The notes under the pieces are model-generated. The model did no database searches. It was not told where the DNA came from and saw only the letters and a program-made list of their open reading frames with translations. From Mobula hypostoma (lineage: Eukaryota): a DNA stretch of 64,000 bases. Positions within the stretch are counted from its first letter, which is position 1. Every line of letters starts with the position of its first letter. Location of the stretch: assembly GCF_963921235.1 (NCBI RefSeq), contig NC_086097.1, positions 94,180,001 to 94,244,000 on the forward strand. Direction: 5' to 3'. Shown piece after piece: positions 2,053 through 24,684 of this stretch. A program made the translations under genes and the position numbers.

Positions 2053-3600
2053 ATGAGAGTTGAATGTCTACAAGGTGGCTTTTTAGAGCAGCTTGTGCTT
2101 GAGTCTACTTGGGGAAGGGCTCTCTTAGATTGGGTATTGTGTAATAACCCAGATTTTATTAGGGAGCTTAATGTAAAGGAACCCTTAGGATTCAATGATC
2201 ATAAAATGATTGAATTCTTACTGCAATTTAAAATGGAGAAGCATAACTCAATGGAATAAAGGGAATTACAGAGGCATGAGAGAGGAGCTTGCCTAGGTGA
2301 ATTGGAGGAGAATACTGGCAGGGATGACAGCAGAGCAGAGATGGCTCAAGTTGCTGGGAATAATTAACAAGGCGCAGGATAGATACGTCCCACAGAGGAA
2401 GAAGTTCTCAAATGGCAGGGGTAGGCAACCATGGCTGACAAGGGAAGTTAAAGACTGCATAAAAGCCAGGGAAAAGGCATATAAGGGGGTAGCAACAGTG
2501 AGTGGATGATTGTGAAGCTTTTAAAATCCAATAAAAGACAACTAAAAAAGTTATAAGAAGGAAAAAGATGAAATATGGGGGCAGACTTACCAATAATATA
2601 AAGCAGGGTACCAAAAGATTTTTCAGTTATATGAAGAGTAAAAAGGAGGTGGGAGCTGATACTGGACCACTGGAAAATGATGCTGGCGAGGTAGTCATGG
2701 GGGACAAAGAAATGGCAGATGTACTTAATGGGTACTCTACATCAGTCTTCACTGTGGAAGACACTGGCAGTGTGCCAGAGGTCTGTGAGTGTCAGGGAGC
2801 AGGAGTGAGTGCCATTGCTATTACAAAGGAAAAGTGCTCAGCAAACTCAAAGGTCTTAAGGTGGGCAAGTCACCTGGACCAGATGGACTACATCCCAGAG
2901 TCCTGAGAGAGATAACGGATGCATTGGTCATGATCTTTCAAGAATTACTTGATTCTGGCATAGTTCTGGAGGACTGGAAGATTGCAAATGTCACTCCACT
3001 CTTTAAGAAGGAAGGAAGGCAAAATAAAGGAAATTATAGGCCATTTAACCTAGCGTAAGTGGTTGGGAAAGTGTTGGAGTCTATTATTAAGGATGAGGTT
3101 ATGAGGTACTTGGAGACTAATGACAAAATAAAGTCAAAGTCAGCATGGCTTCCGTAAAAGGAAATATTGCCTGACAAATCTGTTAGAGTTCTTCAAGGAA
3201 GTAACAAGCAGAGTGGACAAAAGAGAGGCAGTGGATGTCATTTACTTGGATTTTCAGAAGATTTTGATAAGGTGCCAAACATGAGGATGCTTGATGAATT
3301 CCTATGGCATTACAGGAAAGATACTGGCATGGATAGAGGAATGGCTGACAGGCAGGAGGCAGCGAGTGGGAATAAAGGGGGCCTTTTCTGGTTGGCTGCC
3401 AGTGACTAATGGTGTTCTCAGGGGTCAGTGTTGGAACCGCTACTTTTCCCATCGTTTGCCAGTAATTTGGATAATGGAATTGATGGCTTTGTGGCAAAGT
3501 TTGTGGATGATATGAAGGTAGGTGGGGGAGTACTGAGGAAGCAATACAATTGCAGCAGGTCTTAGACAAATTGGAAGAATGGGCAAAAAGATGGCAGATG

Positions 3601-3773
3601 CAACACAAACATGAGGAATTCTGCAGATGCTGGAAATTCAAGCAACACACATCAAAGTTGCTGGTGAACGTAGCAGGCCAGGCAGCATCTCTAGGAAGAG
3701 GTACAGTTGACGTTTTGGGCTGAGACCCTTCATCAGGGCTAACTGAAGGAAGAGCTCTTTGATATGTGTTGTT
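3601..3773 (-). mobile_element. Penelope-like terminal repeat fragment with hammerhead motif
   Basis: Same repeat as the one following the GIY-YIG region at 62960-63020; interrupts CR1 with AGATG repeated on both sides. Confidence 0.7.
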
Positions 3774-4049
3774 AGATGGAATACAATGTTGGAAAATGTA
3801 TGATAATGCACTTTGATAAAAGGGACAATAGTGCCGACTATTATCTAAATGGGGAGAAAGTTCACACGTGAAAGGTGCAGAGGGACTTAGGAGTCCTTGT
3901 GCAAGACTCCCAGAAGGTTAATTTACAAGTTGAGTCTTTGGTAAAGAAGGCAAATGCAATGTTGGCATTATTTTAAGAGAAATAGAATATAAAAGCAAGG
4001 ATGTAATGCTGAGCCATTGAGACATTAGTCAGGTCACACTTGGAGTATT

Positions 4050-4363
4050 ATTCCCCCCCCCCGCTTTGTCTTTCTCCCTGGGCCTCCTGTCCCATGATCC
4101 TCTCATATCCCCTTTGCCAATCACCTGTCCAGCTCTTGGCTCCATCCCTCCCCCTGCTGTCTTCTCCTATCATTTTGGATCTCCCCCTCCCCCTCCCACT
4201 TCCAAATCTCTTACTAGCTCTTCCTTCAGTTAGTCCTGACAAAGGGTCTCGGCCTGAAATGTCGACTGTACCTCTTCCTAGAGATGCTGCTTGGCCTGCT
4301 GCGTTCACCAGCAACTTTGATGTGTATTGCTTGAATTTCCAGCATCTGCAGAATTCCTGTTGT
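4050..4363 (+). mobile_element. Penelope-like terminal repeat insertion with hammerhead motif
   Basis: Flanked by 10-bp direct repeat TTGGAGTATT (4040-4049, 4364-4373); pyrimidine-rich stretch then AGTCCTGACAAAGGGTCTCGGCCTGAAATGTCGACT. Confidence 0.75.
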
Positions 4364-4914
4364 TTGGAGTATTGTCAACAGTTTTGGGTCCCATTTCTCA
4401 GAAAGGATGTGTTGTCATTGGAGAGAGTCCAGAGGAGCTTTATGAGGATGATTCCGGGAATGAAGGGGTTAACATATGAGGAACATTTGGCAGCTTTGGG
4501 CCTGTACTCACTGGAATTTAGAAGAATGTGGGGGGGTGGCGGGGTTGTTTTGCAAAGACTGGATTAGGTGGATGTGGAGAGGATGTGTCCTATGGTGGGG
4601 TATCGGGAACTGGAGGTTCCAGCCTCAAAATTGAGGGGTGACCCTTTAGAACAGAGATAAAGAGGAATTCTTTTTAGCTGGATAGTGGTGAATCTGGAAT
4701 GCTCTGCCACAGACTGCGGTGGAGGCCAAGTCAGTGGGTATGTTTAAGACGGGAGTTGATAGTTTCTTGATCGGTCACATCAAAGGATATGGCGAGAAGG
4801 CAGGTATATGGGGCTGAGTGGGATCCATGGAATGGCGGAGCAGACTCGATGGGCTGAATGGCCTAATTGTGCTCCTATGTCTTACAGTCTTGTGGCCTTA
4901 TGGAGACTGCAAGG

Positions 4915-5440
4915 CATAGGAACAGAATTAGGCCGTTCAGCTCATCAAGTCCGCTCTGCCATTTGATCATGTCTAATTTATTTTCCCTCTCAACCCCATT
5001 CTTCTACCTTCTGCCTGTAACCTTTGATGCCATTACTAATCGAGAGCCTATCAACCTCTGCTTTATTTCTTCTCCCAAAGTGGAAGACCATACACTTCCA
5101 GACACTGTATTCCCTCTGTCACTTCTTCACCTATTCTCTTAATCTATCCAAGCACTTCTGCAGACTCCCTGTTTCCTTAGTGGTACCTACCTCTCCACCT
5201 TTCGCTGTATCATCCACAAACTTGGCCACAAAACCATCATTCTGTCATCCAGATCACTCACGTATAACATGAAAGGTAGGGGACCCAACACTGAACCCTG
5301 AGGAACATCACTAGTCACTGGCAGCTAATCAGAAAATGCCCCCTTTATTCCCACTCTTGGCCTTCTGCCGGTCAGCCAATCTCCTGCCTGTGATAGTTTT
5401 ATTCCTGTAGTACCATGGGCTCATACTTTGTGCAGCACCC
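4915..5440 (-). mobile_element. CR1 LINE fragments
   Basis: Reverse complement carries VPQGSVLGP and the CR1 3' UTR. Confidence 0.65.
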
Positions 5441-6885
5441 TAAACCACCCTATTGACTTGTGAAGCCATAAACACTTCACTTCCATTGTTCTAAATCACA
5501 GTCCTGAAAGGTCTTGAATCAGTGAATGTGCGTAGAATGTTTTCATGAGTGAGTGAATCTACAAACGTAGAAGCAGTGGTCACTGTTTGGAATCTTTGAA
5601 TATGTTTCCTGGAAAGCAAGGGAAGTGAAGGACCAGGCAGTAATATGGGATTGAGGTTACAATCAGATTAGCAAGCCCTTCTTAAATAGTAGAGCAGGTT
5701 CAAGGGGGAGCTTATGCCAACTATTTCATGTTACTGAGTGCCCTTGAGATTAATTCCAATATAGAAAATAAAACATAAAATTGAATAACACAGGAAGATG
5801 CCCTTTGGCCAATAATGTCTGTGCGAACCCTATTACCAATTTCACCTACTCCCATCTCCCTGCACATGGTCCATATCCTTCTTCTCCCTACTTGTTCATG
5901 TTCCTGTCCAAATATTGCCATCATTTCGGCTTCCACCGCCACCCCTAGCAGCACATTCCAGGCACCCTTCACTCTCTGTGTAAAATATTTACTTCATAAA
6001 TTACCACTTTGATTACACTTTGGACCTATAGGTTAGGATTTAACGACACCTAAGCCTCTTTGCTCCACAGTTCTTCGTTCCTCACTTCTAAAGAATTTTT
6101 GATTCACGTTGCTTGGATTTGTCACAGATGAACTCGAGAACCAAAATTAATTTTTTTCGGAGGCATCAAACTAGCATTTATTTCTTAAGGAAGTGTGCAT
6201 GTAAATCAGGCCCTAAAGATTATTTTGGTGCCTGGGTGAAAAGAACACGCACAGTGGAGTGGGTGTGTTAAACACACATATACATGCTTTCTGACTGCAA
6301 TTTTTATCCATCCTTTGTACCTCTTCCATTTTGTGAGATGTAAATCCAGCCCCTATCTCAAAACTGGTGACGTGATCCACCTCCGCTGACTGTGTCACAG
6401 CCTGTTCCACACTTTTGCTTCCCTCTGTGTGAAATACAAAAAGCAGAACCCATCTGTTCGCCTTGTTAATCATATTGTTAAAGAGCACAAGCTGGAATAG
6501 CCAATAGCTATTGTGTTAAAGCAGTGTGCTGCGGAATTTTAATCTGTTTGAGAGCCACTGACCCTGGTGTTGTTGGAGCCAATGTGATTGGTCAAGGTGC
6601 AGTAAGATTACACAACATTCAAGGCCATAATAACCCATTCACATATAGTGACCAGTTTCACTGAGGTTATTGTAACTTTGATTTATTGAAGAGTCTAACT
6701 ATAGAATGTAGTGAATTGGATTTTTAAAACTTGTTACTGAGTTAATCAGCTTGTGAAAACTACTCATAGTTCACAAGACAAAAATAATGCTTCCTTTCGC
6801 ACTTCCTCATTCATCCCAGTTAGGTACAATGCTAGGTTGCCTTCTTCAGCCCTGCACCCAGTAATTCTCTGTTCTCTGAATGCAG

Positions 6886-6981: not shown

Positions 6982-8351
6982 GTCAGTCAATCAGCAGGTC
7001 TGATAGTCATTTACCCTCCTGAGTGTACGTGGCTGTTCTTGCTTTACTGCTATCCATTGGTCGGTGGGAGAGGAGACCCAGGTCTCCGGCTGATGCTTCC
7101 TTTAATTTCTCCTTGAAGACATTGACTGACACAGAATATACAACAGGACAATGTGAAACGGTGTGGACGGTGCTAGTTGCTAAGCCAGGAAGTGGACTGA
7201 TCTGAGACCCACTGTAAAATCACTAGGAATTGCTGGTACACCATCATGGTGGTACTGAAGTCAGTCTTGACTATACATCCAGTGCCCACAGAAGCTAGTT
7301 GGTTAACAAGTAATTGGAAGAAAATATTAATCACATGAGCAGTCCCTCACTTGCAGTGGAGTATAACGTGAAACCAAAACAAAATATTCTAAAAATGCTC
7401 AGCAGGTCAGGAAGCGTCTGTGGAAGGAGAAACAGAGTATTTACATCAGACTGAAAACCCTTCTTTTGAAATGATAAACCAGTTTCTCTCTCCATTGGTG
7501 ATACTTGACTGCTGAGTGCTTCCATGACTTTTTGTTTTTCTTTCAGACTTCCATAATCTGTTTTTATTAAATCTAAATTTAATATTGTTCAGCTGCTTTC
7601 TTTGGTCTTTGCCTTCTTTGCATGATGCACTGTGCTCGGTAAATCTATGCTTTACCTTAATGCAGTTGGCACTGGGAAAGAGCAAAGCTTTGCAATAGAT
7701 GCTGGACTTTCTGAGTCAGACAGTTGTGTGTGCAGGTCCCACTGCAGAGGCTCGAGCAGATAATGTAGCACTGGTGGGATGGCACTGCAGACAAACAGCG
7801 TTGGCTAAATTGTCTCCTCTTTTGCCAGAGTAATCCTGCCTCACTACAGCACAGTCAGCTAGTGCTCTGCTGTTTTTGACGTACTGTTTGGGCTCTCCTG
7901 TAAATAAAATAAATATTTCTCATTCATAGTGACACAGCAATTTCCTCAGCCCTTGCCAATATTTATCCCAAGAACCTGAATATAATCTTACTGCTGCTTA
8001 TGGTCGAAACTGGCTACAAGTAACGTGACCACATTGCACTGGGTGCAGAATGCATTGACTTGGCCTGGAGCCACAAGAGGCACTCTAACCCCAGTGAATC
8101 TCCACTGCACCCTCTCCAGCACTATGGCAAACTGAAGTGCACACAGTCGCCCAGCTGTGGCCTAACCAACGTTTGGTACAATTGTAGCATAACTTCCTGC
8201 TCCTTGGGCCTGTAGGTGGTCCAGTACAGATCACTGTGCCAACTTCAGTGTGCCTAGACCCCCTGAAAAATCAGCTAAGGCTCCCATCGGTGGGAATATC
8301 GATGACACCATTCTCTGCTTTGCCAACAATTGGTTCCATTTTAATTTCCAG

Positions 8352-8432
8352 GAGAGTTTGGCTCGGTGAAGGAGGCGTACTTGAAGATGGAGGATGGGTC
8401 CACTCAAAAGTTGGCCGTGAAAATGCTGAAAA
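8352..8432 (+). CDS. TYRO3: TYRO3-like exon: Gly-loop and catalytic Lys
   Basis: ttccag|GA GAG...AAA A|gtgagt; 81 bp; (G)EFGSVKEAYLKMEDGSTQKLAVKMLK. Confidence 0.93.
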
Positions 8433-10340: not shown

Positions 10341-11301
10341 ATATTCTTATCATCTAGGTACCCACTGGATTGAGTTAGTTTTACCTCTAATTTTGTCTGT
10401 ATTCTAACTCTGTGTCCCTTCTCCTTTCAAACTAACTTAAACCTTCCCAAACACTGGCAAAACCCTCTTCCTGAACAAACATGTTGGACTGTTTGTGGTT
10501 CACGTGAAGGACCCATTGTGATTACAGCCTTTGAGATTATTCTTTTTTAATCTGTGATCTAGTTATCTGTGTTATCCTTTCAGAGGACGTGACCCGGGCC
10601 CAGCACATAAAGTGCAATTACGAAGAAAGCACAGCAGTGCCTCTACTTCCTTCAGACTGCAAATATTCAGCATGACGTCTAAAGCTTCTATATATGCCAA
10701 ACTTTTATAAATACGTGGTTGAGAATGTTATGTTTTGTAACTCCAAAACATTAGACTAATTAAAAGGAAAACAAGAGAGCTGGAAATGCAAATCCAACTT
10801 CAGTTTTTACTTGAATCGAGGCATTCACGTATGATGTGGTAGCATCATGACGCGTGCAATTCACTTATTTTTACATATAAACCATAATGAATTATTGAAA
10901 TGAACAAGAATACTTAATCAAACAATATGTTTACAAGATTACTCAAATATTACTGAAGTATTAAGTACACAACACTCCTCTCTGCTTTGCTATAAACTCC
11001 AACTCAATATAGAATGTATCTCAACTATATACACAGCATACTATATAATATAATTACTATATAGACATCCACAGCATAGTAAGTTTTAAATTGTCCCATT
11101 CAGACCTAAAGATTTAATTGCTGTGGAGGATTTCTTATTCCTGTGGGATATTCTTATTCCTTCCTGACAAGGAAAGGTCACTCTGCTTGGCAGGAGAGAC
11201 TTGGGACTATGAAACAATCAGAGGCAGTGGGGCCTCCTCCGTGGTGGTTGTAGGAGTTGACTCTGAGACTGCAGAAAGTGATCCTGACAGCTCAGGACAC
11301 C

Positions 11302-11841
11302 TTTCTTCTCCTTCCTTTTTCTTCTAGTTTGTTCATCTTGATCTTGAGAAGGTGCATTTAGTTCACTAGAACATTCTCTTACTAATCCTTCTCCTTTTAC
11401 AATCTGATCTCTCCTCTTGGTTTTCTCATGCACAACATCATCTGACGAATCCTCTGTTTTTGTATCTCCGTTGACTCCTTTCATTTTGGTCTTCCATTTA
11501 TCCAGCTGGGCTTTGGTCTTTGCATCTACTTTGACAAGCAGCTTTTTGTCTCTCACTTGAAGTTCATGCAATAACCTTAATGCACACAGAGTCGATTGTG
11601 GTTCTTTGTATTCACAAAAGCTGAATGCTTGCAACTTTCCTGAAGGTCCTTGACCTCTCTTCCAGTTTAAAACCAAGCCACATATTGCAAGTAGCTGCCT
11701 GATTAACATATTAAAAGCTTTCTCAGATATGTTGCCTACAAAACTTTTGCAGTTGGACCACTGCTTTCGTTGCTTTCCCGCTTCCTCTGAGTAGCATGGT
11801 CCTTCCGTGCCAACCAGAGGCACAGAGGTTGGCACCAACAC
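11302..11841 (-). pseudogene. RBM25: Processed, intronless RBM25 fragment (RRM domain) inside the LTR element
   Basis: FVGNISEKAFNMLIRQLLAICGLVLNWKRGQGPSGKLQAFSFCEYKEPQSTLCALRLLHELQVRDKKLLVKVDAKTKAQLDKWK...SSELNAPSQ...RKEKK matches the RBM25 RRM; ARKDH lies in another frame (compensating frameshifts). Confidence 0.88.
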
Positions 11842-13234
11842 CTGTTTGCCCTCTGTTGGGTAAATAGTTTATGCATACAGCATGGAGACAGTTGTGGTAT
11901 CACTCAGTACCTCTCTTCATTTGCTTTCAGATGGCTTCATTGCAGGGGATGTGGCATGCAATTGGTGAATGGATCTCCCAATCACTTTGTAGTTGTCTCA
12001 GCCAATCACAACCCATAATGCTGGTCCTTCTGTTTTTGCCACATACAAGCCCAAATTGGCTTGTTGATTGTTGTGTTTCACTGTTATGAATGTCATTCCC
12101 TCAGGAGTTAGGTTTTCTCCAGTTTGTTCTTCAGGCTTCAGGCTTCAGTTCACTATCTTTGAAATGCCAGTCAAACTCATTTTGTGGAATGACTGAAGCA
12201 GCCAAGCCAGTGTCCAATTCCATTTTAATCAATTTGCCATTCACTACTGCTGTAAGCCATATTGCTTGTCTAATGTTAGTTTCCACATTGTAAATCTCGA
12301 AGCTACCCAGCCCTGTGTCACTCTCATCGCTGTTAGAGTTTTCATCAACAGCATGCAGATTACTGCAACCTGACTTTTTAGATTTTTCTCTTCCCTGTGC
12401 AGTCCATTTAATTTTGTCTGCCTGACGTGCTCTTTGTATCCTAGTTTGTTACATTTTCTGCAAGTTTAGCCTTTAAACCTGCATTGGTCTGGTGTATATG
12501 AGCCTCAGCTACAACAATAACACAATTTGTTCTGTCAGGTAAGCCTCCATCTAGATGTATGAGTTTTGTTCACGCTGACTTTCATTCCTAACTGCAACTT
12601 AATTGCATCTCTGTCAGCTGTTTTTAAATGCTTTCTTGTAAGATTCCACAAACTAAATGATCTCTCAGTGGATCATTAAGCCCATCATTTAACTGATAAT
12701 GCTCAGACAACTTGTTCAATTCATCCATGTATGCTGAAATGGACTCCCCTTCTTTTTGATTCCACTTATGAAACCTAAAGCGTTCCGCAATCAGTAATAG
12801 TTTTGATTCTAAATGTTCCTGCATTACTTTCACAATACCAGCAAAGCTCATTTCAGCTGGTTTGGTTGGTTGGAGCTGTCAAACTCCTAAGCAAATTATA
12901 TGCATTTAAACCCAATGCACTCAGCAAAATTGGTACTTGGTTCTCATTAGCTATTTCATTTGCTTTAAAACACTACACAGTCCATTCAATATATAAAATC
13001 CAGTTATCTGTTGTGGAATCAAACACATCAATCTCTTGCTGCACTTCAACAGGTCTTGGATTCGTTTTAAAAATACCTTGTTACCGCTGTTAGGTTTTGT
13101 AACTCCAAAACATTAAACTAATTAAATAAAAGACAAGAGAGCGGAGAAAGCAAATCTAACTTCAGTTTTTACTTTAATGGAGGTGTGGTAGCATTGTGAC
13201 ATATGCAATTCACTTATTTTTACACATAATCATA

Positions 13235-14229
13235 GAATATAGAGCATAGAAACCTACAGCACATTACAGGCTCGTCAGCCCACAGTGTTGTGTCGACCAT
13301 ATAACCTACTCTAGAAACTGCCCAAAATTTCCCTACTGCCTAGCCCTCTATTTTTCTAAGCTCCACGTACCTATCTAAGTGTCTCATAAAAGACCCTACT
13401 GTATCCATCTTCAGCACCATCACCAGCAGTGCATTCCATGCACCCACCACTCTCCATGTGAAGAACTTACCCCTGACACCCCTCTGGACCTACTTGCAAG
13501 CACCTTGAAACTGTGCCCTCTCATGTCAGCCATTTCAGCCCTGGAAGAAAAGCCTCTGTCTATCCACACGATCAATGCCTCTCACTATCTTGTACACCTC
13601 TATCGGGTCACCTCTCATCTTCCATCGCTCCAAGGAGAAAAGGCCAAGTTCACTCAACCTATTTTCATAAGACACACTCTCCAATCCAGGTAACATCTTT
13701 GTAAATCTCCTCTGCACCCTCCCTATAGTTTCCACATCCTTCCTCCAGTGAGGTGACCAGAAGTGAACACAGTACTCCAAGTGGGGTCTGACCAAGGTCT
13801 TATATAGCTGTAACATTACCTCCCGGCACTTGAACTCAGTCCCACGGCTGATGAAGGCCAACACACCATACGCCCTCTAACAACATTGTCAATCTGCACA
13901 GCAGCTTTGAGTGTGTCCTATGGACACGAACCCCAAGATCTCTCTGATCCTCCACACTGACAAGAGTCTTACCAATAATATTATATTCTGCCTTCAAATT
14001 TGACCTTCCAAAATGAACCACTTCACGCTTATCTGGGTTGAACTCCGTCAGCCACTTCTCAGCCCAGTTTTGCTGTAACCTTTGACCCTCCAGACTATCC
14101 ACAACGCTCTCAACCTTTGTGTCATCAGCAAACTTACTAACCCACCCTTCTACTTCCTCATCCAGGTCATCTATAAGAATCACAAAGGGGAGGGGTCCTA
14201 GGATAGATCTCTGTGGAACACCACTGGTC
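13235..14229 (-). mobile_element. CR1 LINE 3' portion inserted in the 5' LTR of the Gypsy element
   Basis: ORFs 13535-13864 and 13836-14183 (KFADDTK, LVRPHLEYC); CATA repeated at both junctions. Confidence 0.9.
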
Positions 14230-15199
14230 CATAATGAATCATTTAAACAAACAAGAATGCTTAATCAAACAATATATTTACAATGTTACTTAAATATTAA
14301 ACACACAACAGAGAGTATATTGACTGGTTGCATCACAGCCTGGTATGGAAACACCAATGCCATTGACTGGAAAATACTACAAAAAGTAGTGGATATGGCC
14401 CAGTCCATCATGAGTAAAGCCCCTCCTCCCTCTCCCCCACATTTACACATAGCTTTGTTGCAGGAAAGAAGAAACCCCAACACAGGACATGCTCTCTTGT
14501 CGCTGCTGCCATCAGGAAGAAGGTACAAGAGCCTCAAAACTCACACCACCAGGTTCAGGAAAGGTTACTGCCCCCAACCATCAGACTCTTGAACCAAAGT
14601 GGATAACTTCACCCAGCTTCACCTGCAACCTATGGACTCAATTTCAAGGACTCTTCATTTCTTATTCTTTATATTCATTGTTTATTTATTATTATTGTTT
14701 CTTTTTTTTCTTACTGTATTTGTACAGTTTGCTGTCCTTTGCACACTGGTTGTTCGCCCTGTTGGGTGCGGTCTTTCATTAATTTTATTATGGTTATTGG
14801 ATTTATTGTCATCAGGAAGAAGGTACAGGAGTCCACAAGAAACTCAGGGTTTAATATGGTGACATATATGTACTTTGATAATAAATTTCCTTTGAATTTT
14901 AGCTCCCTACATTCACATGACAGCACCTGGTCCCTCATTTCACCTAATACGAACCACCCCTCTGGCTGTTTGTGTAACCCTACTGAGAATGCTCTGCACC
15001 TCATTCTGTGACATCCAGTGAGACAACCCACCACCTGCGACTCACATTGACGGCGAGTGAATCATCGGTTTAGTCAGCTCACTACTGAGCTGCTTATCAC
15101 TATTGCCTTTGGACTTGTGCTCCCTTTTGCTACACACCTGAGCCACTCACCATATCATGATCTTGACTTTGTCTCCACACCTCAGAAGAACATTGACCT

Positions 15200-16829: not shown

Positions 16830-16922
16830 CTGAAATCTGTGTACCTGGAGACAACGAGGAGTTCTTGCGAGAGGCAGCCTGCATGAAGGAATTCGACCAC
16901 CCGAACATCATTAAGATTATTG
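16830..16922 (+). CDS. TYRO3: TYRO3-like exon: helix alphaC
   Basis: pyrimidine tract+cag|CT GAA...ATT G|gtgagt; 93 bp; (T)EICVPGDNEEFLREAACMKEFDHPNIIKII(G). Confidence 0.93.
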
Positions 16923-18780: not shown

Positions 18781-19557
18781 GTAGGATGTAAGGGGCAAGT
18801 GGTTGCCCCTGGCAGTTGTGGCTCAGGGGGCAGAACATCTGAGTTAGAAATAGTGACTGCAGGCCTCATCCTGCGGCAGAAAATTCTAGAGCAGTGCTTC
18901 CAGTCCCAATCAGAGAAGAGCAGTGATATCTTCTTCCTGTTGTCTATCTTTCAAAAGCCCCGTATTGGCTGTGATCTGAAAGAGGATTTGAGGGGTAATT
19001 ACTTTTTTTTTACAGACAGGGTGTTTGACAGCTGGAAAGTGCTGCCTGAGGAGGTGGTGGTATTGGATACGATCATTTGGAGAGACATTTCAGTGGGCAA
19101 GGCTTAAAAGGATATGGTCCTAATGGAGGCAAATGGACAAAATGTTGGCCTGGGTGTGTCTGGCTACAGGGGCTTTTTCAATGCTGTACGACTTTCAGGC
19201 TCTAAGACTGTAGGAAGCACATGGAGGTAATCTGGTGCAGAGCAATCCCGCCCATGCGGATAAGGCATTAATCATTGTACACTCGTTAAAAATAGCTTCA
19301 GAAATCAAAGGCATAAAGACTCAAAGACTTTAAAGTAGGCAATTGTCAATCAGATAGACTTAAATTGAGGGACACGTGCACTATTGATGTTAAAGTTAAA
19401 ATTTTAAAAATAAAAGTGCGACCGAGGACTTCCGGGTCATCAAGGGAATGGCGGCGTAAGGAAAAGGTCTCTCGGCCAAAAAGAAGGTAAACTGCCCCAA
19501 AATGGAATTTAGACGAATACTTAATATTGTATAACTATATTAATAAAAGGGGCAAGG

Positions 19558-20534
19558 ATGATGTCTAAGAACAAGATTAAAAAGTCCGCTCCGAAGGCTG
19601 ATAAACGTAAAGAGACGCAGCAAGGCGACGGGCCTAGCTCCCCCACGGCAAGCCAGGACGGAGAGAATGAGGGGGAATCGGTGACTCTGTCTTTGATTCT
19701 CAGAGAGATTCACGAGTTCCGACAAGATAACAGCAAACAGCTGGAAGATATTAAAGGAGAAATAGTAAAAACTAACTCGCGGATAGATGAAGCCGAAGCG
19801 AGGACTGTAGGAATTGAAGAGAAGCTACAAAATACAGAGGAAGTGATAGCAGAAATACTAAAGCTACAAGAGCAACTCCAGTGGAAACTAATAGATCAAG
19901 AAGGCCGCTCAAGAAGGGAAAATGTGAGGATCTACGGAGTTCCTGAAGGTAAACCCGGATTGATGATTCCCTTCATGGAGAAGCTGCTTAGAGAGAACCT
20001 TGATATACTGGCCGCAAAAGACCTACAGATAGAAAGGGCTCACCGTGCATTGGCACCGCAGCCTCCGGCAGGCGTCCAGCCCAGATCGATTCTGATCAGA
20101 TTTCTCAGTTACAGACGAAGGAAGAGGTGCTTAAGTGGGCATGGCAAAAGAAAGGTTTCATGTGGATCAACTGTAAAATCAGTTTAGGCCATGATTACGC
20201 ACCGGGGATTCTTGCCAGAGGGAAGGAATATGTGGAAACACGGAGGGTCCTGAAGGAAAACAACATCAGATTTCAGACCCCGTATCCAGCTCGGCTGAGA
20301 GGCTTTTATGACGAAGGGACAAAAACTTACGCTACAGCGGAGGAGGCAACGTTGGACCTGGCGGACCGGGGACTACCTATTAAAGTTATCACCCAACCGG
20401 AGTCGCTACTGGAGAGGATTCAGCAGAAGTTGTGGCAGCCAGTGTGGCGAGGACGCTCCACACGACCCAGAGTGTCAAACTACAAGGAAAAGCTGCAAAT
20501 ATTCAGACGCGAATATACAGAGAATACAGATTAA
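19558..20534 (+). pseudogene. L1 ORF1p (coiled-coil/RRM), one frameshift near 20115
   Basis: QEGRSRRENVRIYGVPE, IERAHRAL, PRSILIRF, YPARL. Confidence 0.88.
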
Positions 20535-20896
20535 TTAAGAGAAATGACTGAAAAGAGCAATTTGGACTTAAAGGTAAAATGAAAGACGGTATCTGAAAAT
20601 AAACTAGATGGAATAACTTGAATGATAACAATATGGTTGAGACATAAATAGGAGAAAATTCTCTATGATTATTCAAACTGCTGAGGGCCCTCTAACACAG
20701 GGTGAAGATAGAGGTTATCCCTCTGAACTGAAGCGGGTCGGTGCTCAGGCCTTACTGTGGGAAGTCGGGAAAAATTTTCAAATGTTATACGTTCAAAAAT
20801 GTCTAGGGTATGGTTATATGTTTTGGTTTACTGTTGAGAAGGGATTGCTTACTGTTGGTTTAGAAAAGGAGAGTTTTTTTTTTCTACTAGAGAAAA

Positions 20897-23800
20897 ATGC
20901 AAATTGAATTGGTAAAAATAATTTCCTATAATGTTAATGGGGTTTTGAATCCAATTAAAAGAAATAAGATTATGTCTAAATTGAAAAAGTAGAGGGCACA
21001 AATAGCTTTCCTCCAGGAAACACATATGAGCCAATCTGAACATGGAAAATTAAAAAGAATGGGCTTTAAGCATGTATTTTATTCATCATATAAATTGAGC
21101 CACAAAAGAGGGGTAGCTACTTTAATATCAAGTACTCTTAATTATGAACATATTTCAGAGACTCAAGACAAAGATGGAAGATTTGTAAAAATTACAGGAA
21201 GAATGGAAGGTACAGAAATAACATTGCTGAATGTTTATGCTCCTCCAGGTAGTGAATGGTCATTTTATAGACACATTTTTGACCTAATGGTCAGTTTTCA
21301 AGGGGTAGTAATTTGTGGAGGGGATTTTAATATTAGATTAAATCCTATATTAGCTTCTTCAAGAATCGTTACTCAGAATAAACCTCTGACTCGGAAAGTG
21401 AATTCATTGATGGAGGAGTTGGGAATTATAGATGTCTGGAGGGAATTACACCCCACTAGTAAAGATTATACACATTACTCTTTCCCTCATTCAGCCTATT
21501 CAAGGATAGACTATTTCTTTATATTTAATACAGATAGACTCAGGATAAAAAACTGTAATATTGCAACAATTGATCTGTCAGATCATAGCCCAGTCTCTAT
21601 GTCTCTAATCCTGGAAAGGAAAATGAGGAAAACACTACGGAGGTTAAATTCACATATACTCAATAACCCGAAAATAATGGAGAGATTAAGGGGAGAAATC
21701 AAAGAATACCTAGACCTTAATGACATGGGAGAAACATCACCAGTGATCTTATGGGATACATTGAAAGCTGTACTGAGAGGGAAAATTATTTCCATTACCA
21801 CTCACATGAAAAAAATCAATACACAAAAATTAGCAGACCTTCAAGGAAAATTAAAACAACTTCAAGTTGTAGATAGCAACAAAAGTAATTCAAATCGAAA
21901 ACAGGAAATTAGGAAATTGCAAAGTGAAATTGACGATATTTATACATTGGAAACTCAAAGAAATTTTCTTTACCTGAGACAAAAGAATTATGAAGTAGGA
22001 GGTAAATCAGCTAGTTTACTAGCATATAAGTTACGAAAACAACAAGCAGACAATACAATTCATAAAATAAAGAATCCAAAGACAAAGCTTGTGGAGAGTA
22101 CAATAGGGAAAATTCAAGAGAGTTTTGAAACATATTATCGAGAGCTGTATTCCCAACCCCGGGCCCCCAATGAGCCCTATATAGATAAATTTATTGAATT
22201 CTTTAGATCTACCTAAACTTACAGATTTACAAACTGAAAGTTTATTAGAACCAGTAACTGCCAAAGAACTGAACGTGGCCATCTCTAGGTTAAAGGCTGG
22301 AAAGTCCCCGGGTTCTGATGGGTTTACCTCAGAGTGGTACAAATTGCTGAAGTCACAGTTAGCCCCATTACTACTTAACACCTTTAATTGGATTTTACAG
22401 AGAAGAGAAACTCCACCTTCATGGAGAGAAGCGATTGTTTCAATTATTCCTAAAGAGGGTAAAGATAAATTAGAATGTGGCAATTATCGGCCAATTAGTG
22501 TTCTTAATTTAGATTACAAACTATATACATCTATATTAGCATGCAGATTGGAAAAACTCTTACCTGGCCTCATCCATTTAGACCAGACTGGATTTATTCA
22601 ACAAAGACAAACACAGGACAACATAAGGAGAACTCTACACATATTAGAACAGGTTAATAAGAACGAGACAGAGACAATGGTAGGATTAGACGCTGAGAAA
22701 GCTTTTGATTCAGTTAGTTGGGTATTCCTATACAGAGTGTTTGGAAGATTCGACTTTCAAGAAAAGTTTATTAAAGTGATTCAGACTCTATATGACAGCC
22801 CTACAGCTCAAATTAAGATAAATGGGGACCTCTCTGACTCCTTTATTTTAGAGAGAGGCAGTAGACAAGGATGCCCAATTTCTCCTCTTCTTTTTGCGCT
22901 ATATATTGAACCACTTGCCCAACTAATAAGACAGAGCGAAATCGTAAAAGGTATCAAGGTGGCAGGGATTGAACAGAAAGTGGCGTTATTCGCAGATGAT
23001 GTTTTGGTCTATCTGAGTGAACCAGGAAAATCATTTATAGGATTGTTTACACTGTTGGATGACTTTGGGAGAATATCAGGTTATAAAATAAATGTAAAGA
23101 AAACTCAGGTTATGTCCCTAAATTATACACCATCCAAAAAATTGCAGAATACATATGATCTTAAGTAGGAAGCTAAATCATTAAAATATTTAGGAATAAC
23201 CCTGCTGAAGGATCTTTCAATGCTGTCACGGGTAAATTATGGGCCATTAATCTCAGAGATAAAAGCAGATATGCATAGATGGAATCTTATCCCCTTTTTA
23301 AGTTTAAATTCAAGGATAAATACTATAAAAATGAATATCCTTCCTCGGTTACTGTATCTTTTCTGTACTTTACCTGTGGAGGTGGATGATAATCAATTCA
23401 GGGAATGGGACAAATGGATTTCTTGCTTCATTTGGCAAGGAAAGAAACCTAGAATTCGATATAACACTTTACAGTTAGGGAAGGAAGGAGGAGGTATGGT
23501 TCTTCCTTGCCTGAGAAATTATTTTTATGCCTCACAGATAACCCCTCTGTTAGATTGGTGTAATAGGGAATATAAGGCTAGATGGAAGGAAATAGAATTT
23601 GGATTAGTTGACAGTTTTCCTCTGCAGGCCTCAATAGCTGACAAAGGATTGATGGCCCAGTTGGAAAAATTTAAAAACAGTTGGATAAATCTTACATTAA
23701 AAATATGGCAGAAGGTGGTTAATCCATGTGGAATTAATAACATGCTAAAACTCTTCAGATGGTGTGCATATGATACCGAATTCCTTCCCAACAGAGGAGA

Positions 23801-24684
23801 TAAAAGATTTGAATTATGGATAAAGAAAGGTCTTACAACCTACCTCTCATTTATACCTAAAAGAGTATTACAAGGTTTCCAAATCCTGCAGGACAAACAT
23901 GGCCTAGAACACAATGACATTTTTAGGTACCTTCAAGTACGAAATTATGTTAACCAGAGTTGTAGATATACAGACTTATCAACAGTAGAATTAGAATTTT
24001 TCAAGATTCTGAATTCGGCTTGCAGTTCAATACCTAGTAAATCAGTTTTGTCGATTATATAATGCACTCTCCCATGCTAAAATTGTAAACACATTGTATA
24101 TTAAAGAGAAGTGGGAGAAAGAAGCAGGGTTGGTACTTTCAGAGGAGGCTTGGGGGAAAATCTGCAGCTTTCAATGGTCCTGGACTAATTCTTTGACTTG
24201 GAGAGAACATTGTTGGAAAAACATTATAAGATACTTCAAGACCCCATATCAGGAAAAATATAAAGATACAAACGTGACGTGTTGGAGAAAGTGCGGCTCC
24301 AAGGAGGCAAATCATTTCCATATTTTCTGGGATTGCCCTAAATTAAGTCTATATTGGGAAGGTATTCATAGAACATTAGTTAAGGTACTTAGGACCCAGA
24401 TACCTCTAAACTTTGAGACGCTCTATTTGGGGCATGTATTGTTTCTTGAACAGAAGAAAGATATAAAGTTGCTGTAGGCCCTTTTAGCGGCAAGTAAGAA
24501 ATCAATCACTAGAAAGTGACTAAATCCAATACCACCTACATTAGAAGATTGGCACGAAATTATCTTGGAAATATTTAAAATGGAAAAGTTGACTTACTCC
24601 CTGAGAATTCAAAAAGAAAAATTTTATCAAATCTGGAATAAATGGATTGAATATATAACCCCAATGCGAGCAGACTTTAGATGA
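20897..24684 (+). pseudogene. L1 ORF2p (APE endonuclease, RT, Cys-rich C-terminus) with several stops and frameshifts
   Basis: ISYNVNG, FLQETH, GGDFN, YSRIDY, SDHSP; LDAEKAFD, QGCPISP, LFADD; CWRKC..HIFWDC. Confidence 0.9.

What the first reader, a model, noticed from the sequence alone, without database searches (positions are those of the whole stretch)
10726..14310. Gypsy LTR element that has captured a spliced RBM25 RRM fragment in place of pol
Between two LTRs with TSD and PPT, gag and protease remnants are followed on the same (-) strand by about 540 bp encoding RBM25 from VLVPT through the RRM to RKEKK. RT and most of integrase are missing. The fragment is intronless over what should be several exons, so it came from mRNA. 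It starts right after CAG|GTG, which from memory may coincide with an RBM25 exon start and would point to capture by splicing. It ends in a purine run (AGAAGAAAG) that could be a template-switch microhomology. This looks like LTR-mediated gene transduction; if the chimera recurs genome-wide it is a non-autonomous family spreading a splicing-factor domain. It is antisense to TYRO3, so the TYRO3 pre-mRNA carries antisense RBM25 sequence.
Basis: partly seen in the sequence, partly recalled or inferred. Interest (0 to 1): 0.8.

Follow-up and report, generated by a model that had tools for sequence, protein, structure and literature searches.

The report
Retrotransposon family carrying captured RBM25 exons
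This is one decayed copy of an old retrovirus-like jumping gene, in what looks like a cartilaginous-fish genome, whose copying-enzyme genes are replaced by an intron-free piece of the host splicing-factor gene RBM25; the swap likely arose once, by the copying enzyme hopping between RNA templates, and its fusion point now stands at about 1,200 places in the genome.

Summary
Window 14310-10726 (- strand) is an LTR element with 249-bp LTRs, a 5-bp target duplication (4 of 5 bases match), a polypurine tract, gag and protease remnants, and no RT, RNase H or integrase. In their place is about 590 bp of host RBM25 cDNA.

I found the parental gene 5.6 Mb away on the same contig. The insert is the last 3 nt of exon 2, a 48-nt cassette exon ("exX"), and four further exons, ending within the last ~17 nt of the fourth (exD). 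All introns are removed exactly.

The real 5' junction is a 7-nt match (TGCCACA) between pol and the end of exon 2. The 3' junction lies in a purine run that both partners share. This fits the known double template-switch mechanism (LTR-mediated retroposition, Tan et al. 2016), not capture by splicing.

The 5' junction 24-mer occurs 1,200 times in the genome (reversed control 0), against 2,905 for the uninterrupted pol sequence. The cargo evolves neutrally among copies.

The element lies antisense in an 8.4-kb intron of a TAM-family (TYRO3-like) kinase gene.

This scan already reported the same family from other windows. It is a new member of a known kind, notable mainly for its copy number.

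The parts
14311..14315 (-). 5' target-site duplication (CTCTC)
   Evidence: It matches 4 of 5 bases of the 5-mer after the 3' LTR.
14229..14310 (-). 5' LTR, first part (starts TGTTG)
   Evidence: (repeat D2).
13240..14228 (-). 5'-truncated LINE fragment nested in the 5' LTR, same orientation, ending in ATTCTATG-type repeats. The CR1-like label is recalled, not tested.
   Evidence: ORF 13836-14264 has a weak RVT_1 hit, E 4.8e-4. The same LINE occurs elsewhere at 82% identity over 1,011 bp in L042. The boundaries were read against the 3' LTR.
13088..13239 (-). 5' LTR, second part (ends AACA)
   Evidence: (repeats D1, D4). K2P distance to the 3' LTR is 0.128.
13070..13087 (-). PBS-like stretch, mutated here. 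Other copies read TGGTGACAAGG one base after the LTR.
12420..13030 (-). gag remnant with a decayed CCHC zinc knuckle (about 12462-12421)
   Evidence: ORFs. PNMA E 0.071 here. In other copies PNMA E 0.009 and zf-CCHC E 0.01. All are below the curated cut-offs.
11900..12330 (-). Protease remnant (DTG at 12214-12206) and the first ~25 codons of the RT region
   Evidence: ORFs. The same DNA continues into RVT_1 and RT_RNaseH_2 coding sequence in RT-type relatives.
11893..11899 (-). 5' junction: 7-nt stretch shared by pol and the end of RBM25 exon 2 (TGCCACA; TACCACA in this copy)
   Evidence: Homology of RT-type loci to the window stops at about 11893 in 16 of 29 loci.
11308..11892 (-). RBM25 cDNA insert: exon-2 tail 11892-11890, exX 11889-11842, exA 11841-11686, exB 11685-11628, exC 11627-11467, exD from 11466. 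It includes the whole RRM.
   Evidence: RRM_1 scores 34.8 bits in a better-kept copy and 16.8 bits here.
11301..11312 (-). 3' junction zone: purine run present in both RBM25 exD and pol. The exact breakpoint cannot be resolved.
   Evidence: Small indels cluster at parental positions 581-607 in 18 of 20 copies.
10989..11300 (-). Retained 3' end of pol (C-terminal tail of the integrase ORF) and untranslated region
   Evidence: Shared with RT-type loci. In some copies it is read in frame from RBM25.
10975..10988 (-). Polypurine tract
10726..10974 (-). 3' LTR (249 bp)
10721..10725 (-). 3' target-site duplication (TTCTC)
8350..8432 (+). Host exon (start of the kinase domain) upstream of the intron that holds the element. 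The next exon starts at 16830.
   Evidence: Joints 6979>8350 and 8432>16830, both GT..AG, in 4 of 4 runs. Weak PK_Tyr_Ser-Thr hit at profile positions 10-39.

Best explanation
The window holds one dead copy of a non-autonomous Ty3/Gypsy-like LTR retrotransposon family whose RT-RNase H-integrase core is replaced by a spliced 0.6-kb piece of host RBM25 mRNA; the chimera was likely made once, by two reverse-transcriptase template switches at short sequences shared with pol, and was then presumably mobilised in trans by its RT-bearing relatives to at least about 1,200 sites.

Shown directly:
- the element's anatomy;
- the parental gene and the exact exon joints in the insert;
- the same junction at about 1,200 places;
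- separate 5-bp target duplications at different copies;
- relatives that continue into RT and RNase H at the very point where the chimera turns into RBM25;
- neutral decay of the cargo.

Inferred mechanism: an RBM25 mRNA (isoform exon 2-exX-exA..., without the 30-nt exon exY) was co-packaged in a virus-like particle. Minus-strand synthesis left the element RNA in the purine run near the end of the integrase ORF and continued on RBM25 exon exD. It returned to the element RNA at TGCCACA, near the start of the RT region. The product kept both LTRs, the PBS, the PPT, gag and protease, so it could still be packaged, reverse-transcribed and integrated using enzymes supplied by full-length relatives.

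Both joins happen to keep the reading frame, giving protease-RBM25(RRM)-integrase tail. There is no sign that this fusion protein was maintained by selection.
For: Parental gene and exon structure: the gene is at G000:C1:99791418-99840648 on the - strand. The insert aligns to exX, exA, exB, exC and exD with the introns absent. The window and 16 of the 19 other copies align from within the first 4 bases of exX; L003, L010 and L020 fall short at one end. All run to within about 15 nt of the end of exD. Contigs of 4 of 4 runs show the joints exon 2>exY, exY>exX and exX>exA; exY>exA appears in 3 of 4.

5' junction: exon 2 ends ...TGCCACAACT before GTAAGT. Chimeric copies read ...GATGCCACA-ACT-GTCTCC, with ACT in 17 of 27 loci plus the window. 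RT-type copies read ...GATGCCACA-GCA-GTGTTC in 9 of 15.

3' junction: pol reads GGAGAAGAAAGG or CCAGAAGAAAGG, and RBM25 exD reads ...AAGAAAAGAAAGAGGAG.

Copy counts, 24-mers with up to 3 mismatches: chimeric 5' junction 1,200 (control 0); chimeric 3' junction 383 (control 30); uninterrupted pol 2,905 (control 0). Of 29 loci picked by protease DNA alone, 13 carry RBM25 and 16 carry the RT-type continuation. First-look candidates were 2,907 for the RBM25 part and 4,759 for the protease part.

RT-type relatives: RVT_1 at 32.4 and 32.9 bits, RT_RNaseH_2 at 38-43 bits and RT_RNaseH at 45 bits.

Transposition as a unit: complete copies have two LTRs and their own 5-bp duplications.

Neutral cargo: copy-to-copy dN/dS is 0.71 in frame against 0.64 and 0.67 in the two wrong frames (29 copies, 406 pairs). 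Variants are spread evenly over codon positions: singletons 158/153/175 and shared variants 54/47/53.

Known mechanism: Tan et al. 2016 (PMC5131818; abstract and 12 passages read) found microsimilarity at 25 of 29 junctions (median 6 bp), occasional de novo bases at junctions, pol ORF replaced by the retrocopy, and some chimeras retroposed again.
Against: - The exon 2>exX joint (skipping exY) that the chimera implies is not among the joints listed for the four runs. The captured isoform is therefore inferred.
- Two RT-type loci (L057, L064) read ACA or ACG instead of GCA before GTG. A join directly at the first base of exX, with one mismatch, is therefore not fully excluded.
- The 3' breakpoint cannot be fixed. 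The family has about 4 extra purines relative to either partner.
- None of the six extended RT-type loci is intact, and no integrase domain was recovered among the 54 ORFs scanned. Trans-mobilisation and the Gypsy assignment therefore rest on domain order and shared ends.
- Template switching inside a particle cannot be observed from sequence.
Confidence: 0.85

Rival explanations
1. Retroviral-oncogene-style transduction. An element inserted in an RBM25 intron was transcribed through its 3' end. A cryptic donor in pol was spliced to the acceptor of an RBM25 exon, forming the 5' junction. Only the 3' junction came from a template switch.
For: The RBM25 part appears at first sight to begin exactly at an exon start that RNA contigs show to be a used acceptor (exX). 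In 11 of 15 RT-type loci, pol has GT right after the breakpoint codon.
Against: The three bases between pol and exX (ACT) are the last three bases of exon 2, and TGCCACA before them is shared by pol and exon 2. The join therefore lies inside exon 2, not at a splice site. No remnant of the family lies in sense orientation in the RBM25 introns; the only copy within the 100 kb examined is an antisense solo LTR about 36 kb upstream.
Confidence: 0.06
2. DNA-level rearrangement. An ordinary processed RBM25 pseudogene, or its cDNA, recombined with a genomic element copy by microhomology-mediated repair, and that copy then became the master.
For: Short shared sequences at both joins would also fit microhomology-mediated end joining.
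Against: The insert has no poly(A) tail and no target duplication, and it is truncated at both ends inside exons. This would need two independent breaks that replace pol precisely while keeping every cis signal. The RNA-level route is documented for LTR elements.
Confidence: 0.05
3. Nested insertion. A LINE-made RBM25 retrocopy landed inside a Gypsy copy, unrelated to the pol deletion.
For: A LINE fragment is nested in this very copy's 5' LTR, so nesting does occur here.
Against: There is no poly(A) tail and no duplication around the insert. The pol core is missing exactly between the two joins, and the same joins recur about 1,200 times.
Confidence: 0.02

Closest known systems
LTR-mediated retrocopies of animals (Tan et al. 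2016, Genome Res 26:1663, PMC5131818; abstract and 12 passages read)
   Same: A spliced host mRNA piece replaces part of the internal ORFs of an LTR retrotransposon and is flanked by discontinuous element sequence with both LTRs. Short microsimilarity lies at the fusion points and the mRNA is truncated at both ends. In-frame products are possible. The chimera can behave as a non-autonomous LTR element.
   Different: [quoted passage not shown] Here a single junction occurs about 1,200 times. This example is also old (LTR K2P 0.13-0.26), whereas their set was chosen to be young.
Bs1 of maize, and gene fragments inside maize LTR retrotransposons. Bs1: Bureau 1994, Jin & Bennetzen 1994, Elrouby & Bureau, seen only as citations. 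Gene fragments: Baucom et al. 2009, PMC2774510, passages read.
   Same: An LTR element lacking its own enzymes carries host gene fragments and is propagated as a unit.
   Different: Baucom et al. count 425 intact elements from at least 189 independent captures, about two elements per capture. Here one capture gave about 1,200 detectable copies, in a vertebrate.
Acutely transforming retroviruses with gag-onc fusions, and the read-through/recombination model (Swain & Coffin 1992). Cited in a passage; the details are recalled.
   Same: A host cDNA piece replaces replication genes, is fused in frame to upstream viral ORFs, and depends on a helper.
   Different: Here the 5' join is not a splice or a DNA deletion but a microhomology inside an exon. 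The cargo shows no selection. It is a germ-line genomic family, not an infectious virus.
Classical non-autonomous LTR families. MaLR copied by MERVL is named in the introduction shown. ETn/MusD is recalled.
   Same: They share LTRs and cis signals with an autonomous partner, lack RT and integrase, and have high copy numbers comparable to or above the partner's.
   Different: Their internal regions are not recognisable spliced host-gene cDNA. This family keeps gag and protease remnants plus a complete host RRM.

Membership tests
LTR-mediated retrocopy / chimeric pseudo-LTR retrotransposon (Tan et al. 2016) | Intron-less copy of host exons lying inside an LTR element | tested here: met
   Five exon-exon joints are exact against the parental gene.
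LTR-mediated retrocopy / chimeric pseudo-LTR retrotransposon (Tan et al. 2016) | The retrocopy replaces part of the element's ORFs, so the flanks are discontinuous rather than a simple insertion | tested here: met
   RT-type relatives continue into RT and RNase H at the 5' join and share the 3' tail after the 3' join.
LTR-mediated retrocopy / chimeric pseudo-LTR retrotransposon (Tan et al. 2016) | Microsimilarity between mRNA and element at the fusion points | tested here: met
   5' junction: TGCCACA, 7 nt. 3' junction: shared purine run including AAGAAAG, exact point unresolved.
LTR-mediated retrocopy / chimeric pseudo-LTR retrotransposon (Tan et al. 2016) | No poly(A) tail and no L1-type target duplication at the retrocopy ends | tested here: met
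   The insert ends inside coding exon exD and begins inside exon 2.
Ty3/Gypsy LTR retrotransposon | Gene order gag-PR-RT-RNase H-IN; LTRs TG..CA; 4-6 bp target duplication | tested here: inconclusive
   The order PR then RVT_1 then RT_RNaseH_2/RT_RNaseH is seen in relatives. LTRs are TG..CA and the duplication is 5 bp. No integrase domain was recovered in 54 scanned ORFs, and no RT phylogeny was made.
Non-autonomous LTR retrotransposon family | Lacks RT and IN but keeps LTRs, PBS and PPT, and exists as many dispersed copies with individual target duplications | tested here: met
   (1,200 junction matches on many contigs).
Non-autonomous LTR retrotransposon family | Mobilised in trans by an autonomous partner | not testable with these tools
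   Relatives with RT and RNase H that share LTR, gag and PR exist. All the copies examined are decayed.
L1/LINE-type processed pseudogene | 3' poly(A) tail, flanking target duplication, 5' truncation only | tested here: not met
   No poly(A) tail, truncated at both ends, no duplication of its own.
Splice-mediated (read-through) transduction | The gene-side 5' breakpoint lies exactly at an acceptor and the element-side breakpoint at a donor | tested here: not met
   Three bases of the upstream exon 2, preceded by 7 shared bases, come before exX.
RBM25 (host gene) as source of the cargo | Best protein matches are RBM25, and the DNA matches the genome's own RBM25 exons | tested here: met
   Copies are 85-89% identical to the parental exons.

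The most novel reading that the evidence does not exclude
The RBM25 cargo was not a passive passenger. Either the in-frame protease-RRM-integrase-tail fusion, or the stretch of essential-gene sequence itself, helped the chimera out-replicate other defective relatives. The sequence could have blunted small-RNA silencing, because silencing the element would also hit RBM25. That would explain why a single capture reached about 1,200 copies, roughly 40% of the count of the RT-type sequence.
Probability: 0.08. Interest if true: 0.75.

Novelty: new member of a known kind. Interest (0 to 1): 0.42.

Why it matters
This locus shows that one LTR-mediated capture of a host mRNA can found a vertebrate repeat family of more than a thousand copies. 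That is two to three orders of magnitude above the copy numbers in the passages I read for animal LTR-retrocopies and for maize captures.

It scatters a complete RRM-coding segment, and antisense RBM25 sequence, through many introns. This is raw material for exon shuffling. It is also a trap for annotation: one public stingray gene model starts inside such a copy.

Both junctions are still readable, so the locus is a clean natural record of the double template-switch mechanism.

It also led to two small alternative RBM25 exons in the parental gene, one of which is preserved in the captured cDNA.

It does not reveal a new mechanism.

Tried and rejected
- Capture by splicing. I first read the 5' join as pol donor GT spliced to the exX acceptor. 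I dropped this when the RNA joints and the sequence of the exon 2 end explained the three intervening bases and the 7 shared bases.
- Progenitor insertion in RBM25. BLAST of the window element and four RT-type loci against 100 kb around the gene found no sense-oriented family remnant in the introns.
- Selection on the cargo. The first estimate, dN/dS 0.74, looked mildly constrained. The wrong-frame controls give the same value, so it is an artefact of the method.
- Protein search with the window's protease ORF: 165 candidates, none significant.
- Pfam on gag and protease ORFs of the window and of seven other ORFs: only sub-threshold hits.
- Integrase. I scanned 54 of the 96 ORFs listed. I left out those of L077, and those lying in nested repeats or beyond the point where 3' homology resumes. 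No rve hit.
- RNA runs: no RNA holder listed. The four runs I laid are contigs of guessed kind; they do carry spliced joints.
- Contigs cover the window copy at depths similar to the neighbouring intron. This says nothing about the element's own transcription.
- Earlier-findings look-ups by place and by 'junction microhomology exon boundary donor' returned nothing.
- Literature (listings only). 'RBM25' + 'LTR retrotransposon' gave 6 papers, none about capture by title or abstract. 'RBM25' + 'retrocop' gave 1 unrelated paper. 'RBM25' + 'transposable element' + 'shark' gave 0. I found no print record of this family in these searches.
Full report
WHAT IS THERE

On the - strand, the window holds an LTR element from 14310 to 10726.
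- The LTRs are 249 bp, starting TGTTG and ending AACA. The same ends recur in twelve other fetched copies.
- The 3' LTR is 10974-10726.
- The 5' LTR is 14310-13088. It is split by a roughly 1-kb, 5'-truncated LINE fragment at 14228-13240, whose ORF gives a weak RVT_1 hit.
- The flanking 5-mers CTCTC and TTCTC agree at 4 of 5 positions.
- Other copies have their own 5-bp duplications, for example CCCAC/CCCAC in L035 and GGTGG/GGTGG in L038. The unit therefore transposed as a whole.
- A polypurine tract precedes the 3' LTR and a PBS-like stretch follows the 5' LTR.
- Inside are a gag remnant with a decayed CCHC knuckle and a protease remnant with DTG (ORFs). Pfam sees these only below threshold.
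- The two LTRs of this copy differ by K2P 0.128. Six other complete copies give 0.166-0.262. The insertions are old. At an assumed 1e-9 per site per year this is on the order of 60-130 Myr; that figure is an inference and the rate is not known.

THE CARGO IS RBM25

- ORF 11868-11218 (216 aa) matches gar RBM25 residues 77-263 at 61% identity, E 6e-64.
- 183 proteins scored E<=0.001. Those I saw that bear a descriptive name are RBM25.
- A better-kept copy, L010 (284-aa ORF, P0121), has RRM_1 at 34.8 bits, above the cut-off.

THE PARENTAL GENE

A search with the PWI-domain end of a stored RBM25 protein located the gene at G000:C1:99791418-99840648 on the - strand, 5.6 Mb from the window on the same contig.

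The window's insert aligns to five exons with every intron exactly absent:
- a 48-nt exon I call exX (99832633-99832586);
- exA, which starts at VLVPT;
- exB, exC and exD.

The window and 16 of the 19 other copies align from within the first 4 bases of exX; L003, L010 and L020 fall short at one end. All end within about 15 nt of the end of exD. Copies are 85-89% identical to the parent and 82-84% identical to the window copy.

IS exX A REAL EXON?

Contigs of four coded runs laid on the parental locus show the spliced joints exon 2>exY (4 of 4 runs), exY>exX (4 of 4), exX>exA (4 of 4) and exY>exA (3 of 4). Here exY is a further 30-nt exon. So exX is a cassette exon in use today.

A public 220-aa model from another elasmobranch (P0122, named RBM25-like isoform X1, Heptranchias perlo) begins with the exX peptide.

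THE TWO JUNCTIONS

To see the pol side, I searched the genome with protease DNA only. Of the 29 loci returned:
- 13 carry RBM25;
- in 16, homology to the window stops at about 11893 and the sequence runs on into RT-type coding sequence.

Extended RT-type loci give RVT_1, RT_RNaseH_2 and RT_RNaseH hits above threshold. None is intact, and no integrase domain was found among the 54 ORFs scanned.

5' junction:
- RT-type copies read ...GATGCCACA-GCA-GTGTTC (9 of 15; two read ACA or ACG).
- Chimeric copies read ...GATGCCACA-ACT-GTCTCC (ACT in 17 of 27, plus the window).
- I first took this as a pol GT donor spliced to exX. But RBM25 exon 2 ends ...TGCCACAACT before its GTAAGT donor.
- The chimera is therefore pol up to TGCCACA, which both partners share, then the last three bases of exon 2, then exX.
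- The join is a 7-nt microhomology inside exon 2 (window 11899-11893), not a splice site.

3' junction:
- RBM25 exD ends ...AAGAAAAGAAAGAGGAG.
- pol reads GGAGAAGAAAGG in the commoner form (1,510 pattern matches, control 14).
- pol reads CCAGAAGAAAGG in a second form (629 matches, control 0).
- The chimera reads ...GGAAGGAGAAGAAAGG followed by pol.
- The partners share at least AAGAAAG.
- The run is low in complexity, copies differ there by small indels, and the family has about four extra purines. The breakpoint can therefore only be placed within window 11312-11301.

HOW MANY COPIES

24-mers, up to 3 mismatches:

| Sequence | Matches | Reversed control |
|---|---|---|
| Chimeric 5' junction | 1,200 (85 exact among those listed) | 0 |
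| Chimeric 3' junction | 383 | 30 |
| Uninterrupted pol at the 5' site | 2,905 | 0 |

The 3' figure is probably lowered by the indel-prone run, though this was not tested. First-look candidates were 2,907 for the RBM25 part and 4,759 for the protease part. One capture event therefore founded a family of at least about 1,200 copies.

IS THE CARGO USED?

In several copies one ORF runs from protease through the junction into RBM25 (L007, L019), or across both junctions into the integrase tail (L010, 284 aa). Both joins therefore kept the frame. The chance of that is about 1 in 9 (an inference).

There is no trace of selection among copies:
- dN/dS is 0.71 in frame and 0.64 and 0.67 in the two wrong frames (29 copies, 406 pairs).
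- Variants fall evenly on codon positions: singletons 158/153/175 and shared variants 54/47/53.

By contrast, of the 25 sites where at least 70% of 20 copies differ from today's gene, 21 are third positions. That is what purifying selection on the host gene itself would give.

About 4% founder-to-parent difference, against roughly 8-9% decay per copy, suggests the burst followed soon after the capture (an inference).

MECHANISM

[quoted passage not shown] 2016; abstract and passages read). In that model an mRNA is co-packaged in the particle. RT switches to it and back at short similarities. Both LTRs are retained, and the product behaves as a pseudo-LTR element that can be retroposed again.

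The steps inside the particle, and mobilisation in trans, are inferred, not shown. No sense-oriented family remnant lies in the RBM25 introns.

CONTEXT

Spliced contigs of 4 of 4 runs join 6979>8350 and 8432>16830 with GT..AG on the + strand. The element therefore sits antisense in an 8.4-kb intron.
- Exon 8350-8432 has a weak hit to the start of the tyrosine-kinase domain.
- Exons near 31.6 kb and 36.5 kb match the TAM kinases. The best match is TYRO3 for one exon (E 1.4e-26) and MER for the other.
- That these exons belong to one gene is inferred.

ELSEWHERE

A public stingray model (P0206, Hypanus sabinus, named GTF2IRD2-like) starts with the pol-exon 2-exX-exA junction peptide. I do not know whether that is the window's own species.

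This scan has already reported the same family from at least eight other windows of this genome, and a similar case from another genome, with the same closest-known paper. I scored on my own tests.

VERDICT

The splicing idea is wrong in detail. It is a new member of a known kind, notable for its scale.

Noticed in passing
G000:C1:99837476-99837505 (exY) and 99832586-99832633 (exX); locus L082 8577-8606 and 3687-3734: The host RBM25 gene has two small in-frame alternative exons (30 nt and 48 nt) between exon 2 and the VLVPT exon. Spliced contigs of four runs support them. The gar and frog RBM25 proteins fetched here lack both peptides, while a Heptranchias model starts in exX.
   Followed up: partly
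loci L057, L065, L080; pattern: A second derivative lineage has a large pol deletion running from the start of RNase H to the same purine run where the RBM25 chimera rejoins pol. Its junction 24-mer has 629 matches (control 0). The purine run may be a recurrent switch site.
   Followed up: partly
L077 (G000:C96:23886800-23895800), about 2086-5730: This copy has RT fragments after the protease, unrelated sequence, and then only the last 70 nt of the RBM25 piece plus the 3' junction. It may be a recombinant between RT-type and chimeric RNAs.
   Followed up: no
window 10725-10703: The 23 bases after the 3' LTR resemble the PBS region that follows 5' LTRs in other copies (about 15 of 23 bases). 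BLAST hits of 5' LTR plus PBS from L034, L038 and L042 extend to 10703. This could be chance or a trace of a tandem or truncated second copy.
   Followed up: no
window 10649 / 14310: One contig of one run (X1) joins 10649 to 14310 with CT..AC ends. That is a - strand GT..AG splice removing almost exactly the element. It is weak evidence: one contig, 26 nt on the shorter side, and the 14311-14422 flank is itself repetitive.
   Followed up: no
window 13240-14228: A LINE fragment is nested in the 5' LTR in the same orientation. It ends in ATTCTATG-type repeats, and a copy 82% identical over 1,011 bp lies in L042.
   Followed up: partly
protein P0206 (public model, Hypanus sabinus): A gene model named GTF2IRD2-like begins with about 80 residues that are the chimera's pol-RBM25 junction and the first part of the RRM. 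It then continues into a transposase-derived domain. This is probably an annotation artefact or an exonised copy.
   Followed up: partly
G000:C1:99876648-99876890: A solo LTR of the same family lies about 36 kb upstream of RBM25 exon 1, antisense to the gene.
   Followed up: no
window 19400-24000 (+ strand ORFs 20993-22213, 22185-23165, 23169-24059): Long + strand ORFs are covered by high-depth contigs that are 95-99% alike. This looks like another, more recently active and transcribed repeat in the next intron.
   Followed up: no
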